Shown piece by piece: positions 21,950-59,500 of a DNA stretch of 64,000 bases. Both the position numbers and the translations under genes were made by a program. The DNA is from a virus. The stretch lies in the IMG/VR virus record IMGVR_UViG_3300017751_000001; one strand, written 5' to 3'. The notes below the pieces were generated by a model that saw only the letters and a program-made list of their open reading frames with translations, was not told the origin of the DNA and did not search any database. Position 1 is the stretch's first letter, and each line of letters opens with the position of its first letter.

Positions 21950-22594
21950 TTACATGAATAATACTTGTACAAGTCTTGGAAACTCAGTAAACATACCCCT
22001 TTTAAGAACTGCTCCATGCATGTGATCACATTCATATAACACCATCCTATTGTATTTCATTTTAGATTCATATTCTAATCTTGGTACGGCTGATGGATCG
22101 TCTGGCATCCAAGCATAAAAATTAGTTCCTCCATCACATTCCTGATCTTTATTGAGGTAGATTACTGCAGCCCACTTATAATTAGTGGAATCTTTATGGA
22201 ATGTATATGTATGTTTTTTCTCATTGAATCTAGTTTCAATATCATTTCCATTAGTTACATTTGCCATAAATTTAGTATCTCTCCAAAAAGTATCATCGTA
22301 CTCTGGATTCCAAAAATCAAATTGACATGCTTTTTCAAAAACTGATTTTAAATTCTCATCAAATCCTTCTATATTTTCAATAACTCTTGATCCTATAAGA
22401 TTTCCCGTATATTTCTTATCGGTCTTGCGAGTACCATTAAGAGCAATTTTTCGTACTTCATCGGGATTTTTATAGAAATCATCTATAGTAATTACATATC
22501 TCCATACATGCCCTAGGTCATTTTTAGCATGATCATATATTTTTTTTACTGTCGTCTTACGAGATTCATTTAGTTCAAACATATTTCTTCCCAT
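21950..22594 (-). CDS. 2OG-Fe(II) oxygenase-like protein (DUF6445-like)
   Basis: IDDFYKNPDEVR, FHKD, WAAVIYLN, GGTNFY and NRMVLY..HMHG. Paralogue of 12189..12896. Alternative ATG at 22582. Confidence 0.75.
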   Translation of the reverse strand: MGRNMFELNESRKTTVKKIYDHAKNDLGHVWRYVITIDDFYKNPDEVRKIALNGTRKTDKKYTGNLIGSRVIENIEGFDENLKSVFEKACQFDFWNPEYDDTFWRDTKFMANVTNGNDIETRFNEKKHTYTFHKDSTNYKWAAVIYLNKDQECDGGTNFYAWMPDDPSAVPRLEYESKMKYNRMVLYECDHMHGAVLKRGMFTEFPRLVQVLFM

Positions 22595-23446: not shown

Positions 23447-23454
23447 TATTTATA
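23447..23454 (-). promoter_or_regulatory. T4-type late promoter TATAAATA
   Basis: Exact consensus 35 nt upstream of the chaperone ATG. Confidence 0.8.
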
Positions 23455-23463
23455 ACAAAACAT

Positions 23464-23488
23464 AAAAAAAAGACCCCTTTCGAGGTCT
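23464..23488 (-). terminator. Rho-independent terminator
   Basis: Minus strand AGACCTC-GAAA-GGGGTCT (GNRA loop, one G-U pair) followed by a T tract. Confidence 0.85.
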
Positions 23489-23528
23489 AAATGGACAATC
23501 GGGACATCCTGCCCCACAACATCCAGAA

Positions 23529-24326
23529 TTACATATAACTAATTTTAACAAGACCACTTCCACCTGTTCCACCTTGTCCACAACATCTTTCACAGTAAGA
23601 TGTGACTGCACCCTGACCACCGTGTGCGTATGGAGCTCTCCAGCATCCACAACGAACCCAACAATGTCTAACAGTAGAATTAACTGCCATAGTACCCAAG
23701 AATGGAGCTCCTGTGGGTCTACTTTCATTGAAGTAACAATGACAGTTCCAACCAGCAGAACCATATCCCTTTCTAGTACCACCACCATGGTTACCCATTC
23801 CGAAGTCTCCTCCATGAGCACCAGGTTGAAAACAACACTTAGCCATAGAACTATAGCAAGTTGTAGACCAAGAGTTGGTAGCACAACCTCTAGTGCCACC
23901 CATTGCACAGAAGTTACTTAAATTATATCCATTTACATATGAAACACATCCATCACATCCAACACACTCTCTAGAACAACAACGATAAACACCACCAGCA
24001 CATACAGAATATGCACAACCAGCTTTTGTTCCAATGGTTTTTGCGTTATAGTATCCACCCTGGGCTCCATGCCAGTTATAACATCTATTACAAGAACATG
24101 TTCCGTGTCCGTTTCCTCCAGCACCCCAGAGTTCCCAATAAATTCGTTGTACTCCAGTAGGAACAGTCCAAGCGCAGCAACATCCAGAAGTCATTGCCGT
24201 AGGATCACCATATATCCACTTAACATTCCAATTGGAGAATGCTCCACTCGCTAGTTGAGTGTTAGTAATAGACCCATCAACAATTTGTGAGTTACTAATC
24301 TGTTTATAAGAAGCGTAATTAGCCAT
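23529..24326 (-). CDS. Cys/Gly-rich tail-associated protein, paralogue 3
   Basis: 265 aa, 26 Cys by my count. Shares MANY.SYK, GCCC.W.VP.GV, WGAGGNGHG.CSC.RC and CCGQGGTGG.G.V.I.Y with the two upstream ORFs. Confidence 0.85.
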   Translation of the reverse strand: MANYASYKQISNSQIVDGSITNTQLASGAFSNWNVKWIYGDPTAMTSGCCCAWTVPTGVQRIYWELWGAGGNGHGTCSCNRCYNWHGAQGGYYNAKTIGTKAGCAYSVCAGGVYRCCSRECVGCDGCVSYVNGYNLSNFCAMGGTRGCATNSWSTTCYSSMAKCCFQPGAHGGDFGMGNHGGGTRKGYGSAGWNCHCYFNESRPTGAPFLGTMAVNSTVRHCWVRCGCWRAPYAHGGQGAVTSYCERCCGQGGTGGSGLVKISYM

Positions 24327-24346
24327 TTGGAGTCCTATTTAATAGT

Positions 24347-24354
24347 TATTTATC
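24347..24354 (-). promoter_or_regulatory. Late promoter GATAAATA
   Basis: NATAAATA motif 21 nt upstream of paralogue 3. Confidence 0.65.
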
Positions 24355-25153
24355 AGAAGTAAGTGATTTTGACGAGTCCGCCACCACCAGTACCGCCTTG
24401 TCCGCAGCAACTTGAACCACAATAAGTAGTCATTGCACCTTGACCACCATGACCATAAGGAACAATCCAGCAACCACAACGAACCCAACATTCACGAAGT
24501 GATTGGTGAACATCAGTTCCAATGAGTGGAGCAGAAGTTGGAGTAGTCATATGAACATAACAGTGACACCAACGACTACGGTTGGTAGAATATCCACCCA
24601 TAGTCCAAGTGTCTCGTAGAGTACCCATACCAAACTGACCACCATTACTTGTAGGAGCCACACAGCAGTGCCATTCTGCATTACAGGCGGTCTCCCATGA
24701 GGTATTGGCGTGACCACAAGATCCACCGTATGCACAGAAGTTACTTAGATTATACCCATTTACATATGATGAGCATCCGTTACATCCCGCACATTCCCTA
24801 GAGAGGCATGGATATACACCAGCTGCACATACAGAATATGTACATCCAGCGGTGGTATCTAACATCACACTGTTATACAGTCCACCGCCAGCACCTCTGT
24901 AGTGATGACATCTACTACATGAACATGCACCATGTCCATTACCACCAGCACCCCAAGCCTGGATCCAGAGTTTTTTAACTCCAGTAGGAACAACCCAAGC
25001 GCAGCAACATCCAGGTGAACATCGGCACATGGTTCCGTAAAACCACTTTACTCCGAATGTTGAGGTTGGGGAAGTGGAGAATTTTGTAGATCCTAAGATT
25101 CCATTATCTAGTTGATCTCCGTTAATTTTTTTGTAACTTGCGTAATTGGCCAT
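24353..25153 (-). CDS. Cys/Gly-rich tail-associated protein, paralogue 2
   Basis: 266 aa, 27 Cys; same motif framework. Confidence 0.85.
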   Translation of the reverse strand: MANYASYKKINGDQLDNGILGSTKFSTSPTSTFGVKWFYGTMCRCSPGCCCAWVVPTGVKKLWIQAWGAGGNGHGACSCSRCHHYRGAGGGLYNSVMLDTTAGCTYSVCAAGVYPCLSRECAGCNGCSSYVNGYNLSNFCAYGGSCGHANTSWETACNAEWHCCVAPTSNGGQFGMGTLRDTWTMGGYSTNRSRWCHCYVHMTTPTSAPLIGTDVHQSLRECWVRCGCWIVPYGHGGQGAMTTYCGSSCCGQGGTGGGGLVKITYF

Positions 25154-25166
25154 TGATTCCCCTTGA

Positions 25167-25949
25167 TTACATGTATGTGATACGTACTATTCCAGATCCA
25201 CCAGTACCGCCTTGTCCGCAGCATCTTTCACAATATGAGGTCATTGCACCTTGACCACCAGCACCATATGGAGTCGTCCAGCAACCACAGCGCATCCAAC
25301 AGTAGGCACTATGGGTTTTATTACCAATTCCAATGAATGGAGCAGCACCAGTACAAGTCTGAGTATTACTTTGTCCACAATGACAGTTCCAGTGACCACT
25401 GAATCCTGGCCAATGGGGTGCGACTGCAAAGTCTCCACCATAACTTCCTGCTTGCATACAGGTGTGATAAGTAGAATGACAGAGGTTAGACCAATCTGTA
25501 TTAGCCTCTCCTCTACCGCCACCCACCGCACAGAAGTTAGTTAGGTTGTATCCATTTACATATGATGCACATCCGTGACATCCAACACATTCTCTAGAAC
25601 AGCATCTATAGACGCCAGCAGCACATACTGTATATTGACAACTTCCTGCGGTAGAAATCGTCTTGGTGTTGAAACTGCCACCGCCAGCACCTCTGTAGTG
25701 ATGACATCTGTTGCAAGAACATGCACCATGTCCATTACCACCAGCACCCCAGAGTTCCCAAGTAACTTTGCCAACTCCAGTCGGTACTGTCCAATTACAG
25801 CAACAACCAGAAGTGAGTACTCCTGGATCACCATAAATTGTCTTTACATTCCAGCTCGGTCCAACACCAGTAGAAAGCTTTTCAATGGTGATGGACCCAT
25901 CTGGAACCTGGGCCGCAGAGACTTTTTTATATGATCTATAGTTGGCCAT
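25167..25949 (-). CDS. Cys/Gly-rich tail-associated protein, paralogue 1
   Basis: 260 aa, 25 Cys; same motif framework. Confidence 0.85.
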   Translation of the reverse strand: MANYRSYKKVSAAQVPDGSITIEKLSTGVGPSWNVKTIYGDPGVLTSGCCCNWTVPTGVGKVTWELWGAGGNGHGACSCNRCHHYRGAGGGSFNTKTISTAGSCQYTVCAAGVYRCCSRECVGCHGCASYVNGYNLTNFCAVGGGRGEANTDWSNLCHSTYHTCMQAGSYGGDFAVAPHWPGFSGHWNCHCGQSNTQTCTGAAPFIGIGNKTHSAYCWMRCGCWTTPYGAGGQGAMTSYCERCCGQGGTGGSGIVRITYM

Positions 25950-56582: not shown

Positions 56583-59500
56583 TCAATACGGAGGTCTATC
56601 ATCGTAGGTTACAACAGTCTCATTAAACCTAGTGATAGTGGAGTTCACTCTATTGACATCATAGAAGAAATTATTATCTACAGTATTTTCAATTTCTGCT
56701 CTTCTACCTTGAACAAATGTTCCATCACCAATTTGTTTAACCTTCATAAATTCATCACCATACTTAATCACATCATTTGGTGCCAAAGACGTAATTCCAG
56801 TAGTAACGACAATACTTTGATCAAATATTCCAATTGGAGATCCAATGCCAACCTCAAGTTTTTTATTTCTAAGAGGACTTTGGATGATATTATCAATCAA
56901 GATTAATGCGTTTGTAGATGGGTCAGAAACGCTAAACTTATGAGTTCCAGTTCCATATCCAACAAAATCCAATGGCAATGAAGTGGATAGTCCACTAATC
57001 TTAAATGTAACATCATCAATTTTCTGAACAAAAACTCTCTCGGGAATAGATGTTCCACCCAGCTCTACTGGTGTGCAGAGAAGATCATCATTAGAACCAC
57101 TACCACCAATATAAGTTCCAGCAATAGAAATTGTTTCCGTACTTACATATCCACTACCACCACTAACAACAATAATACTTTCAACATCAAGATTTGAATC
57201 TCTAGTAACGTCAAAACGTGCGCCAGTACCGCTTAAATCACTTGTTGATGGTACGTTAAGGTAAGTAGTAGTAACACCTGTTTGAGTACCAGTAATGCGT
57301 GATACGGGGAATGTTAGGTCGTTTGCAGGAGTAGTTCCACCCAAATGAGTACCAGCAATACTCACATTATCACCAACATAGTATCCACTACCACCCTGAG
57401 TCAAGGTAATATTCGTAGAAAGTGGTTGACCCGTACTTTGTTCATATGTAAATTTAACTTGGAATCTAGCCCCCGTTCCCCTAGTAGAAATGCCAGGAAG
57501 ACCACCATCAGGACTTCCGAATCCATATACAACAAACACAACAATTGGACTTACTACAGTACCAACACCAGTAACAGTATGTTCTGGAATTTCTATGTTA
57601 TATCCATTTTCAAACATTGCACCACTACCAGCCAATGCTGTTTCTACATTCATTACAATGTCTCTGAGACCAGCAACGTGAGATGTAGTAGCAATTCCAA
57701 TTGGAGATCCACCTTCTAGACTATAATTTAATTCCTGACCTGTTTGGAAGTTATGATTAGGAATAGTAATGATGTTATCCACAAGATCAACAACTGAACT
57801 ATCGGATGCATTGAAAGTTGCTTTAAATAATGGTTGACCATTAGCTTTCAGTTTAAATCCAATATTACCAACTAAAGTTCCTGTTCTATCGTGATCTCCA
57901 TTGAAACCAGAAGAGATATCATCTATCAATAGAACTTTATTAGTCTTATTCAGAATGTAACTCTTAATAGGTCTACCTTCTGGGAAGAAAATTCTTTGAA
58001 TACTTCCATCTGGAGCCATATCATCTTCAGTGACTAGAGCAAAGTTCTGTCTTTCTTGTAGATAAAGGTCACTATCAATATTAACTAAGAGATTTACCGA
58101 ATTAGTAGCCGACTTAACCTTCATATTAGTGGTTGGTTGGCTAATAATCTCAAGATCACAAAATTCTCTAAATCCAGAAGGGTGAACAATAGATCTTACA
58201 GATTCCCTCCATGTATCATATGGAACTCTTCCTTTAATGGAATATGAAAACTTTTGATAGTAGAAGTTATCAGAAATTCTTTGACTAAACTCGTTAAGAA
58301 TTCCAGTGGTATTATCATTTTTTGCGACTTTATCTCTACTAACTCCCAATGTACTTCTAACATTAAATCTATTAACAGCTTCAACTCTACCTATGATAGT
58401 GGACTGTTCTCCATAGATCTCATCTCCAACAGATAATACTCCAGAAGTATCAGAGAGTCTAAGTTGACTCAATCTAGGATCCCAACCACCTGGAGATACA
58501 AATCCTTCAAATTTCTTAGAAGTGATTTTTTCTTCAGATAAGAATTTGGCATCATTAATAAGACTCATTCTAAACTTTGCCATATCGTTAGAATTAACGA
58601 CATAACCTAGTCCAAAATCATCATCGTAAGATCCCAAGGTTCCTGTATTAATTCCAGCAACACTATACGAAAGTGTAAAATTAGAAGTATTGACTCCAGT
58701 AACGGTGAAGAACTTAAAGTCAAAGTTTTCCGAGTTGAAATTAATCTCTCCCTCGAACAAAGAATCGGCTTTTAATCTACATCCTTCAATAAAAATAGAA
58801 TCCCCAACTTTAAACGGAAACTCAATATCAGTAGTTCCATATCCCGTTCTGACTGGTTGATTGAACTGAGCATCAAGAAGTAATTCAATAGTTACGGTAT
58901 TTCCAACATGAGTAATTTGATCAATGTCATATCCATTGGAGTTTTGTGTTGGGATAATACTCAAAGGTTCATCAAATTCAAAAGCATTTTGAAGAATGAA
59001 TACTTTGTCTACAGCTCCACCATTAAGTCTAGATTGTAGATCAATTGTATCATTACCACGTATAATCAAGTTGGGTGGTTGAGAATAATTTCTACCTCCA
59101 TCCAAAATCTCAATTTCATTAATTCTCTGAACCCCCGCAACGTCAATTACAGCTGGTACACTTAGGAATGGAATCAAAGTAGGATCTGTTGGATAATCAA
59201 ATCCATCCTTAACTCTTTCTAGAGTATCAATTTTACCAATATTACTGGAAAGAATTTTGACCGTTGCATTCTTACCAGAAGAACTCACAAATCCGTTAGT
59301 AGATGGAATAATTCTGTATCCTCTACCAGAAAAGTTTGTTTTTGTAGAATAAACTGGACCGACAGCAGAGGTAGATGATGTTTCATAGAAAATTGTACTA
59401 ACACCAAGTCTAGAAACATAAGTCTGTGTTTCTGATGGTATGCGATCAAGATTGTATGTAAATTCTTTATCACCCCTAACAGTAATTCTGTTCTCACCAT

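What the first reader, a model, noticed from the sequence alone, without database searches (positions are those of the whole stretch)
23450..23560. Hidden Cys-rich peptide (CNSGCCGAGCPDCPF) encoded in the +1 frame across the stop of paralogue 3
Seen: the gene ends TAT ATG TAA (stop 23531-23529). The +1 frame reads TGT AAT TCT GGA TGT TGT GGG GCA GGA TGT CCC GAT TGT CCA TTT (23533-23489), five Cys in 15 codons. It fills exactly the GC-rich gap between the stop and the terminator stem, and the frame stays open to a TAA at 23452-23450 inside the next promoter. CCGxGCxxCP[FY] is, from memory, the signature of small Cys-cluster proteins (DUF5522-like). Inference: either a +1 frameshift adds a metal-binding tail to a fraction of paralogue 3, or a ~30-35-aa peptide starts at a GTG/TTG (~23560-23548) behind AGGTGG. 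The stop lies beyond the terminator U-tract, so translation would need read-through. The same bases can also form a hairpin (GGGGCA-GGA-UGUCCC).
Basis: partly seen in the sequence, partly recalled or inferred. Interest (0 to 1): 0.7.

Follow-up and report, generated by a model that had tools for sequence, protein, structure and literature searches.

The report
Unannotated four-cysteine mini-gene in cyanophages
The cysteine-rich stretch after the third fibre-like gene is one copy of a tiny, unannotated protein-coding element that many marine cyanophages and a few Synechococcus hosts carry, often right behind very highly expressed genes (psbD, major capsid); what it does is unknown.

Summary
Paralogue 3 ends TAT ATG TAA (stop 23531-23529). 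The +1 frame reads five Cys in 15 codons, passes through an intrinsic terminator and stops at TAA 23452-23450 inside a TATAAATA late-promoter-like box.

It is not chance. Variation sits almost only at third codon positions, and Arg appears as both AGA and CGA.

Four of 301 Cyanobiaceae genomes carry it as ATG-started ORFs of 28-44 codons. One phage lineage has it as a canonical gene: AGGA, 6 nt, ATG, 33 codons, with the stop overlapping the next start.

It abuts the stops of unrelated genes (psbD, g23 major capsid, small genes, this window's paralogue). About 80% of copies are followed by a terminator. No record I opened annotates it.

The motif matches only the C-terminal half of DUF5522, below Pfam's threshold.

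My best reading is a translated four-Cys mini-protein gene. In this window its start is unresolved (TTG or GTG, no ATG). A +1 frameshift tail is not supported but not excluded.

The parts
23529..24326 (-). Paralogue 3, a 265-aa Cys/Gly-rich fibre-associated protein of unknown function. Its stop TAA is at 23531-23529.
   Evidence: ORF list. PHROG 4205, E 8e-57. Homologues in Sf-FS3 and S-SSM7.
23483..23524 (-). Conserved coding core of the mini-ORF (GGA...CCT), encoding G-C-C-G-A-G-C-P-D-C-P-F-R-P in the +1 frame relative to paralogue 3.
   Evidence: The same core with synonymous variation in viral contigs. The same core in hosts.
23450..23551 (-). Candidate full mini-ORF: TTG 23551-23549 through 33 codons to TAA 23452-23450. 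Alternative starts are GTG 23557-23555 and GTG 23563-23561. The start is inferred, not shown.
   Evidence: No ATG is in frame. The TTG and GTG codons are forced by the Gly/Val/Leu codons of paralogue 3, so their conservation says nothing.
23492..23525 (-). Local RNA hairpin inside the coding core (inner 7-bp stem, 3-nt loop, outer 5-bp stem).
   Evidence: Across 40 distinct cores the fold is only slightly better than column-shuffled synonymous controls (-10.3 vs -9.4 kcal/mol), so it is largely a by-product of GGN...CCN codons.
23464..23488 (-). Intrinsic terminator: 7-bp stem, GAAA loop and T-run. Its 5' arm AGA-CCT is also the Arg-Pro of the conserved peptide.
   Evidence: The same arrangement, with the hairpin starting at the Arg codon, occurs in 28 other contexts. 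The terminator is retained in Sf-FS3, which lacks the core.
23447..23454 (-). TATAAATA, a T4-type late-promoter-like box for the next gene. It contains the mini-ORF's stop codon.
   Evidence: Read from the sequence. Conserved in all relatives. Promoter function is inferred from the T4 late consensus, as used in PMC3037559.
22645..23412 (-). Downstream gene: a 255-aa protein with a tail-fibre assembly/chaperone-like C-terminal domain.
   Evidence: Pfam PF16778, E 1.2e-8. PHROG 9740 and PHROG 4912, 'tail fiber assembly'.

Best explanation
The stretch is a copy of a small, so far unannotated protein-coding gene family of T4-like cyanophages, also present sporadically in marine Synechococcus-family genomes. 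It encodes a peptide of about 23-45 residues. The invariant core, G-C-C-G-[A/S]-G-C-P-D-C-P-F-R-P, carries four cysteines spaced CC-x3-C-x2-C. The core corresponds to the C-terminal Cys knuckle of DUF5522 proteins without their N-terminal half.

The most likely product is a free mini-protein whose four thiols hold a metal or act in redox chemistry. That function is inferred, not shown.

The gene usually rides as the last cistron of a highly expressed unit. It overlaps or abuts the stop of the preceding gene and often uses its own Arg-Pro(-Pro) codons as the 5' arm of the unit's terminator.

In this window it follows paralogue 3. Translation would start at TTG 23551 or GTG 23557/23563, inside the end of paralogue 3, probably by coupling to ribosomes that terminate at TAA 23531-23529. 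This step is inferred. Complete translation also needs transcripts that read through the terminator.
For: (1) Selection on the Cys frame. A degenerate pattern found at least 118 viral contigs with 32 synonymous spellings. In flanks the pattern did not constrain, variation is codon-periodic: the positions after CC, TT and CC vary, and Arg is AGA in 67 and CGA in 21 of 88 sequences. A scan anchored on the 3' half alone found the 5' half always in frame, with only Ala-to-Ser replacements. The other two frames carry replacements or TGA stops.

(2) Independent gene versions. Four of 301 Cyanobiaceae genomes have ATG-started ORFs of 28-44 codons with the same core in GC-rich codons. In a phage lineage seen in 8 contigs, the psbD stop is followed by an 80-nt spacer, AGGA, 6 nt, ATG and 33 codons, with the stop overlapping the next gene's ATG. 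Three other upstream-gene families show ATGA or TAAAATG junctions in the other frame.

(3) The start-less class, behind g23 and behind this window's paralogue, still keeps the peptide through synonymous, Ala-to-Ser and Asp-to-Thr changes. An in-frame TTG, GTG or ATG 8-25 codons upstream exists in every member.

(4) hhalign of the family profile against a true DUF5522 protein gives 92% probability over the C-terminal 22 residues.

(5) In the window's clade there is no variable column from -30 to +40 around the core, against 15% variable columns in both flanking genes.
Against: The window copy has no ATG and only a weak GGAAG-like Shine-Dalgarno before the TTG. The TTG and GTG codons are dictated by paralogue 3's own codons.

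The ORF's stop lies beyond the terminator's U-run, so terminated transcripts would be non-stop.

Within a clade even synonymous sites are frozen. Coding constraint alone does not explain that.

The element is dispensable. Sf-FS3, L007 and L008 carry a gap 21 nt shorter that looks like a decayed copy. The whole genomes of S-SSM7 and Sf-FS3 have none.

Gene callers produced only 11 proteins of this kind among 1.84 billion representatives. No expression, peptide or metal-binding data exist. The AlphaFold2 model is uninformative.
Confidence: 0.6

Rival explanations
1. Cis-acting trailer or leader peptide. Translation of the Cys- and Pro-rich mini-ORF into or up to the terminator stem modulates termination, and so read-through into the next gene. 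Ribosome pausing at the four Cys codons or the R-P-P(-P) run would act as the sensor. The peptide itself would have no function in trans.
For: About 80 of 102 distinct contexts have an intrinsic terminator 33-94 nt after the core starts. In 28 the ORF runs beyond the hairpin, in 27 it ends inside it, and in many of the rest it ends 16-18 nt before it. The terminator's 5' arm is often the peptide's own Arg-Pro-Pro codons. Polycysteine short ORFs act as Cys-responsive attenuators in mycobacteria (bioRxiv 10.1101/834739, found).
Against: Nine non-Cys residues are as invariant as the cysteines, which an amino-acid-sensing leader does not need. Host copies and the canonical phage gene version have no terminator behind them. 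The downstream genes are unrelated to sulfur metabolism: a fibre chaperone-like gene, purC, purL and talC. The motif is shared with free-standing DUF5522 proteins.
Confidence: 0.12
2. Recoding. A fraction of ribosomes finishing the upstream gene shift +1 at its stop codon and append the four-Cys tail to paralogue 3. Elsewhere the tail would be added to the major capsid protein, to D2 or to small proteins.
For: Where the upstream stop lies within 13 nt of the core, it is in the frame that makes the Cys frame +1 in 9-10 of 10-11 gene families, at exactly -7 or -10. One contig has an in-frame fusion of an upstream protein with the mini-ORF (P0009). A hairpin follows the stop by 10-13 nt.
Against: No P-site codon allows re-pairing (ATG-TAA-T here, CTC-TAA-A after psbD). 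No stimulator lies at prfB-like spacing. Free-standing and other-frame copies show that the peptide is made without any shift.

The frame bias has a simpler cause. The conserved block carries TAG or TAA at -7 in only one alternative frame and no stop in the other. Only genes in that one frame can abut it without gaining a long tail.

The second 'fusion' (P0006) comes from a 454 virome and sits at an A-run. No longer proteins with the motif were found.
Confidence: 0.08
3. The element is a nucleic-acid element, such as an RNA hairpin or terminator accessory, or a recombination junction at the ends of expression units. The Cys frame would then be a coincidence of G-rich and C-rich arms.
For: The core folds into a hairpin. 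Real cores fold slightly better than synonymous column-shuffles (z = -2.4). Positions 11 and 20 are Watson-Crick complementary in 50 of 73 variants. Within clades the nucleotides are frozen although neighbouring genes diverge. T at -7 and A at -1 are invariant in the phage copies even though they are third codon positions.
Against: Period-3 variation over about 16 codons, the AGA/CGA exchange, conservative Ala-to-Ser changes, and host copies rewritten in GC-rich synonymous codons cannot be produced by a pairing constraint. The predicted stems differ in register between variants, and 23 of 73 break the 11-20 pair. Equally high mutual information between non-pairing columns points to lineage structure. 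No Rfam family matches.
Confidence: 0.08
4. The family is a real gene, but this window's copy is a silent passenger. It was recently acquired or is on its way to loss, and is not translated for lack of a start and because of the terminator.
For: There is no ATG. The stop lies beyond the U-run. The sister clade (Sf-FS3, L007, L008) has a shorter, degraded gap at the same place. Only three distinct sequences of the window clade exist, so the lack of variation is weak evidence.
Against: The core is intact and identical in three genomes whose flanks differ at 15% of columns (P about 2e-4 at the coding rate, 0.015 for third positions alone). The equally start-less copies behind g23 keep the peptide across much deeper divergence.
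Confidence: 0.1

Closest known systems
DUF5522 (Pfam PF17653), small bacterial proteins of unknown function
   Same: The C-terminal motif is CC-G-x-x-C-x-x-C-P-[F/Y], preceded by basic residues. hhalign gives 92% probability over 22 columns against a true member. Every family member tested hits profile positions 30-47 of 48.
   Different: The N-terminal 30 positions of the domain are absent. Scores are 12-18 bits against a cut-off of 25. The peptides are half the size. The phage/Synechococcus core is far more rigid (Gly-Ala-Gly, Pro-Asp, Phe-Arg-Pro). A full DUF5522 was found in only 1 of 301 Cyanobiaceae genomes searched.
Polycysteine short ORFs acting as cysteine-responsive attenuators in mycobacteria (bioRxiv 10.1101/834739)
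   Same: A very short Cys-rich ORF placed just ahead of a structure that decides expression of the next gene.
   Different: Here the non-Cys residues are invariant. The ORF trails a gene rather than leading an operon. The downstream genes are not cysteine genes. Some copies have no terminator.
Recoding at gene ends: T7 capsid 10A/10B (-1), prfB and antizyme (+1 at a stop codon).
   Same: An alternative frame opens exactly at the stop of a highly expressed structural gene, with a hairpin a few bases downstream.
   Different: There is no slippery or re-pairing codon and no stimulator at the known spacing. Homologous copies are translated on their own.
FeoB-associated Cys-rich membrane protein (Pfam PF12669)
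   Same: Weak matches to its Cys-rich tail (13-16 bits, cut-off 27).
   Different: There is no transmembrane helix. The match is sub-threshold and probably compositional.

Membership tests
DUF5522 (PF17653) | Pfam HMM score at or above the gathering threshold (25 bits) | tested here: not met
   The window peptide scores 12.4 bits, E 0.18. Host and phage relatives score 14.8-18.4 bits. A true member scores 52.5 bits.
DUF5522 (PF17653) | Full domain of about 48 residues, including the N-terminal part (profile positions 1-30) | tested here: not met
   All matches cover only profile positions 30-47. The hhalign alignment covers template residues 25-46 of 53.
DUF5522 (PF17653) | C-terminal CC-G-x-x-C-x-x-C-P-[F/Y] motif | tested here: met
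Translated small ORF (mini-protein gene) | Purifying selection in one reading frame across relatives | tested here: met
Translated small ORF (mini-protein gene) | Start codon with a ribosome-binding site, or a coupling arrangement | tested here: inconclusive
   Met in relatives: AGGA-N6-ATG, ATGA overlaps and host ATG. In the window only TTG or GTG 10-14 codons upstream of the core, with a weak Shine-Dalgarno.
Translated small ORF (mini-protein gene) | Evidence of translation (footprints, peptide) | not testable with these tools
   No Ribo-seq or proteome data are available here.
Programmed +1 ribosomal frameshift at a stop codon (prfB/antizyme type) | Shift-prone P-site codon and a stimulator at defined spacing | tested here: not met
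   The site is ATG TAA T. The nearest GGTGG lies 25-30 nt upstream. Other contexts read CTC TAA A and TTC TAG A.
Programmed +1 ribosomal frameshift at a stop codon (prfB/antizyme type) | Frame relation to the upstream gene conserved at all homologous sites | tested here: not met
   Three upstream families are in the other frame. Host copies and one phage lineage are free-standing.
Leader-peptide attenuator | ORF positioned so that the ribosome's position decides whether a terminator forms | tested here: inconclusive
   A terminator follows about 80% of copies and overlaps the ORF in 55 of 80. Alternative pairings were not demonstrated, and some copies have no terminator.
Intrinsic (Rho-independent) terminator | GC-rich hairpin followed by a U-run | tested here: met
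   Hairpin at 23488-23471 plus a run of T. Conserved in relatives.

The most novel reading that the evidence does not exclude
The four-Cys module is a portable, recoding-dependent C-terminal tag. Ribosomes that reach the stop of very highly expressed phage genes (major capsid g23, psbD/D2, fibre-associated proteins) occasionally shift +1 and add a metal- or disulfide-forming knuckle to a subset of molecules. The free-standing versions would be the ancestral gene.
Probability: 0.07. Interest if true: 0.9.

Novelty: new variant of a known kind. Interest (0 to 1): 0.62.

Why it matters
The psbA-psbD region and the g23 gene of marine cyanomyophages are among the most studied phage loci. They are used as ecological markers and as the classic example of auxiliary metabolic genes.

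A strongly conserved coding element sits directly behind them. It is missing from every annotated record I opened. If it is translated, cyanophages and some hosts share a four-cysteine mini-protein expressed together with photosystem and capsid genes. That would be a candidate small redox or metal factor, and a concrete case of how many functional ORFs under 50 codons phage annotation misses.

Its habit of abutting stop codons and doubling as a terminator arm also makes it a good model for extreme gene packing, for translational coupling and, less likely, for recoding.

Tried and rejected
1. tblastn of a 27-residue family member against GenBank phages found nothing, probably because of the low-complexity filter. 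blastn with 52-63-nt queries worked instead.

2. The AlphaFold2 model of the family alignment has mean pLDDT 51.5 and no secondary structure. It is uninformative, so no fold search was run.

3. A sequence search of the PDB with the family profile gave no hit at E up to 10. Rfam gave no hit. NCBIfam gave no hit.

4. I tested whether the long open +1 frame over the 3' part of paralogue 3 and of g23 (83-134 codons) shows an overlapping long gene. Against synonymous-codon shuffles, P is 0.10-0.43 per gene, which is not significant. The 152-codon ORF at 23450..23908 is therefore not supported as a gene.

5. I tested the hairpin as the primary constraint. The excess stability is weak and the stem registers are inconsistent.

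6. Contig ends are enriched just 5' of the element: 39 of 126 lie within 400 nt, against 8 on the 3' side. I considered a repeat or mobile-element signal. The simpler cause is that the near-identical psbD gene lies just upstream and breaks assemblies.

7. The Streptomyces hit of the DNA pattern is a chance match in a high-GC multi-frame region.

8. The fused protein P0006 comes from a 454-sequenced virome, and the shift is at an A-run. I treat it as a likely sequencing error.

9. The first related-loci run failed and was repeated.

10. Host gene neighbourhoods were too noisy in high-GC DNA to give a functional link.

Full report
**1. The observation**

The window is part of a 74-kb IMG/VR fragment of a T4-like cyanophage. 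Its nearest cultured relatives are Synechococcus phages Sf-FS3 and S-SSM7.

On the minus strand, a 1477-aa fibre-like gene is followed by three Cys/Gly-rich paralogues of 260-266 aa (PHROG 4205, unknown function). After them come a fibre-assembly/chaperone-like gene and a 2OG-Fe(II) oxygenase-like gene.

Paralogue 3 ends TAT ATG TAA, with the stop at 23531-23529. It continues through a terminator hairpin (23488-23471, T-run to 23464). It stops at TAA 23452-23450 inside TATAAATA.

**2. Close relatives**

Three metagenomic relatives (L004-L006) have the identical 40-nt gap. Sf-FS3, L007 and L008 have a gap 21 nt shorter that aligns weakly to the 3' half and keeps the same terminator. S-SSM7 and three more distant contigs have unrelated gaps.

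In the window's clade no column varies from -30 to +40 around the core. By comparison, 15% of columns vary in both flanking genes. The whole genomes of Sf-FS3 and S-SSM7 contain no copy. The element is therefore accessory.

**3. The element is widespread and varies like a coding sequence**

The hits use 32 different synonymous spellings.

That search could only return synonymous variants, so I used two unbiased views.

- In the flanks the pattern did not constrain, variation has period 3. The base after CC, after TT and after the next CC is free. Phe is TTC or TTT. Arg is AGA in 67 and CGA in 21 of 88 distinct sequences. The two other frames take replacements, or a TGA in 33 of 88.
- A scan anchored on the 3' half alone returned the 5' half always in frame. 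Its only change was Ala to Ser, in 8 contigs. Two further hits were unrelated chance matches.

Other natural variants seen later change Asp to Thr, Pro to Ala, Ser or Tyr, and Ala to Gly. None touches the four Cys or the frame. A relaxed six-frame motif scan of all fetched loci found one copy per locus.

**4. Where it sits**

Twelve unrelated upstream gene families precede it.

| Upstream gene | Members | Position of its stop relative to the core |
|---|---|---|
| Small-gene family of the psbD region (about 80-88 aa) | 39 | -7 |
| Small-gene family of the psbD region (about 47-114 aa) | 29 | -7 |
| psbD | 20 | -7 |
| 475-aa protein, which is the g23 major capsid protein | 9 | -10 |
| This window's paralogue | 8 | -10 |
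| Smaller families | 1-4 each | -7, -11, -13, -17, -20, -25, -40 |

The g23 identification comes: in S-RIM12, ACG-2014a and ACG-2014g the element follows g23 directly.

blastn found the element in about 100 GenBank Synechococcus myophage records. It lies in gaps that carry no annotation.

About 80 of 102 distinct contexts have an intrinsic terminator within 33-94 nt. In 28, including the window, the hairpin begins at the peptide's Arg codon and the ORF's stop lies beyond the U-run.

**5. Versions that are plainly genes**

- A Synechococcus MAG carries an ATG-started 28-codon ORF with the same core in GC-rich codons, near an hli gene.
- A profile search of 301 genomes of that family found four such ORFs of 28-44 codons, each with ATG six or seven codons before the Cys pair.
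- In one phage lineage, seen in 8 contigs from several samples, the ORF stands 80 nt after psbD. It has AGGA, 6 nt, ATG and 33 codons, and its stop overlaps the start of the next gene. talC and a glutaredoxin gene follow.
- Three other contexts have ATGA or TAAAATG junctions in the other frame relative to the upstream gene.

Among 1.84 billion representative proteins, only 11 called proteins match the profile. The family is essentially unannotated.

**6. Relation to known families**

Every member tested hits only the last 18 positions of DUF5522, at 12-18 bits against a cut-off of 25. hhalign against a genuine DUF5522 protein gives 92% probability over the C-terminal 22 residues.

This is the Cys knuckle of DUF5522 without the rest of the domain. 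It resembles that family but is not a member by Pfam's criterion. A full DUF5522 is rare in the host family, found in 1 of 301 genomes. There was no PDB, NCBIfam or Rfam match. The AlphaFold2 model is uninformative.

**7. How the window's copy could be expressed**

There is no ATG in frame. TTG 23551 and GTGs at 23557 and 23563 lie 10-14 codons before the core. All are forced by the Gly/Val/Leu codons of paralogue 3.

Every start-less copy, behind g23 and behind this paralogue, has some TTG, GTG or ATG 8-25 codons upstream in an open frame, but at no fixed position. These copies still keep the peptide across deep divergence, so they appear to be translated.

I consider initiation inside the end of the upstream gene, coupled to its termination, the most likely route. 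This is inferred, not shown.

**8. The frameshift reading**

The +1 frameshift has three points in its favour.

- The frame relation is biased: the stop is at -7 or -10 in 9-10 of 10-11 tightly abutting families.
- A hairpin lies 10-13 nt after the stop.
- One contig carries an in-frame natural fusion (P0009).

Against it, no shift-prone codon or stimulator is present. The free-standing and other-frame copies show that the peptide does not need a shift.

The frame bias has a simpler cause. The conserved block contains TAG or TAA at -7 in one alternative frame and no stop in the other. Only genes arriving in that one frame can abut it without acquiring a long tail.

**9. The RNA reading**

The core does form a hairpin. 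Synonymous column-shuffles fold almost as well (-9.4 against -10.3 kcal/mol). Stem registers differ between variants, and a quarter of variants break the best covarying pair. The hairpin is mainly a consequence of Gly (GGN) and Pro (CCN) codons facing each other.

Two things remain unexplained. Synonymous sites are frozen within clades. T at -7 and A at -1 are invariant in the phage copies.

**10. Verdict**

It is a conserved, unannotated four-Cys mini-gene family of cyanomyophages and some marine Synechococcus, and this window holds one copy with no ATG start that overlaps the terminator.

The frameshift idea is not supported, and the DUF5522 link holds only for the motif. Function (metal or redox mini-protein, or a translation-coupled terminator element) and the start site in this window need experiments.

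Noticed in passing
L002:3600-3929 (S-SSM7, GU071098.1 100415-100744): At the same place, after the third paralogue, S-SSM7 has an unrelated 80-nt gap. Its +1 frame also holds four cysteines (CxxC, 9 residues, CxxxC). It is annotated as overlapping gene SSSM7_117. Pfam gives only a weak Stc1 hit (E 0.02).
   Followed up: partly
L164 (complete 231-kb IMG/VR genome G302, 57385-57444): A second, diverged copy of the core (Ala to Gly, Asp to Thr) has no start of its own. It overlaps, in another frame, the signal-peptide-like N-terminus of a longer ORF that starts with an ATGA overlap. This may be overprinting.
   Followed up: partly
L167:290-370 and L168:285-365 (S-RIM12 KX349315.1; ACG-2014a KJ019033.1): The element lies directly behind the major capsid gene g23, whose stop TGA is at -10. 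It is followed by a terminator and is unannotated. ACG-2014g has two copies, one behind g23 and one in the psbD cluster.
   Followed up: yes
L169:13-267: One metagenomic contig encodes an in-frame fusion of the small psbD-cluster protein with the mini-ORF. An internal ATG is kept and Pro is replaced by Tyr in the core. purC lies downstream.
   Followed up: partly
element positions -7 and -1 (window 23528 and 23522): T at -7 and A at -1 are invariant in 88 distinct phage sequences although both are third codon positions. They are not kept in the host copies. T-A-[G/A] at -7 serves as the stop codon of many upstream genes.
   Followed up: partly
L147:2311-2622 and L012:4686-4940: A protein of about 85-103 aa with a conserved G-E-G-F-S-W ... 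P-W-F-S-A-E-G-L segment lies next to the mini-ORF. It is downstream in a Synechococcus MAG and upstream in one phage lineage. An hli gene lies nearby in the MAG.
   Followed up: no
window 23529-25949: There are three tandem paralogues with about 10% Cys in a fixed framework, between a 1477-aa fibre-like gene and a fibre-assembly chaperone-like gene. Only the last one is followed by the mini-ORF and a terminator. The gaps between the paralogues are 13 and 26 nt.
   Followed up: no
window 21950-22594: A 214-aa ORF whose Sf-FS3 homologue is annotated as a prolyl 4-hydroxylase-type 2OG-Fe(II) oxygenase. It sits two genes downstream of the Cys/Pro-rich mini-ORF and next to Pro-rich tails of neighbouring proteins.
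   Followed up: no
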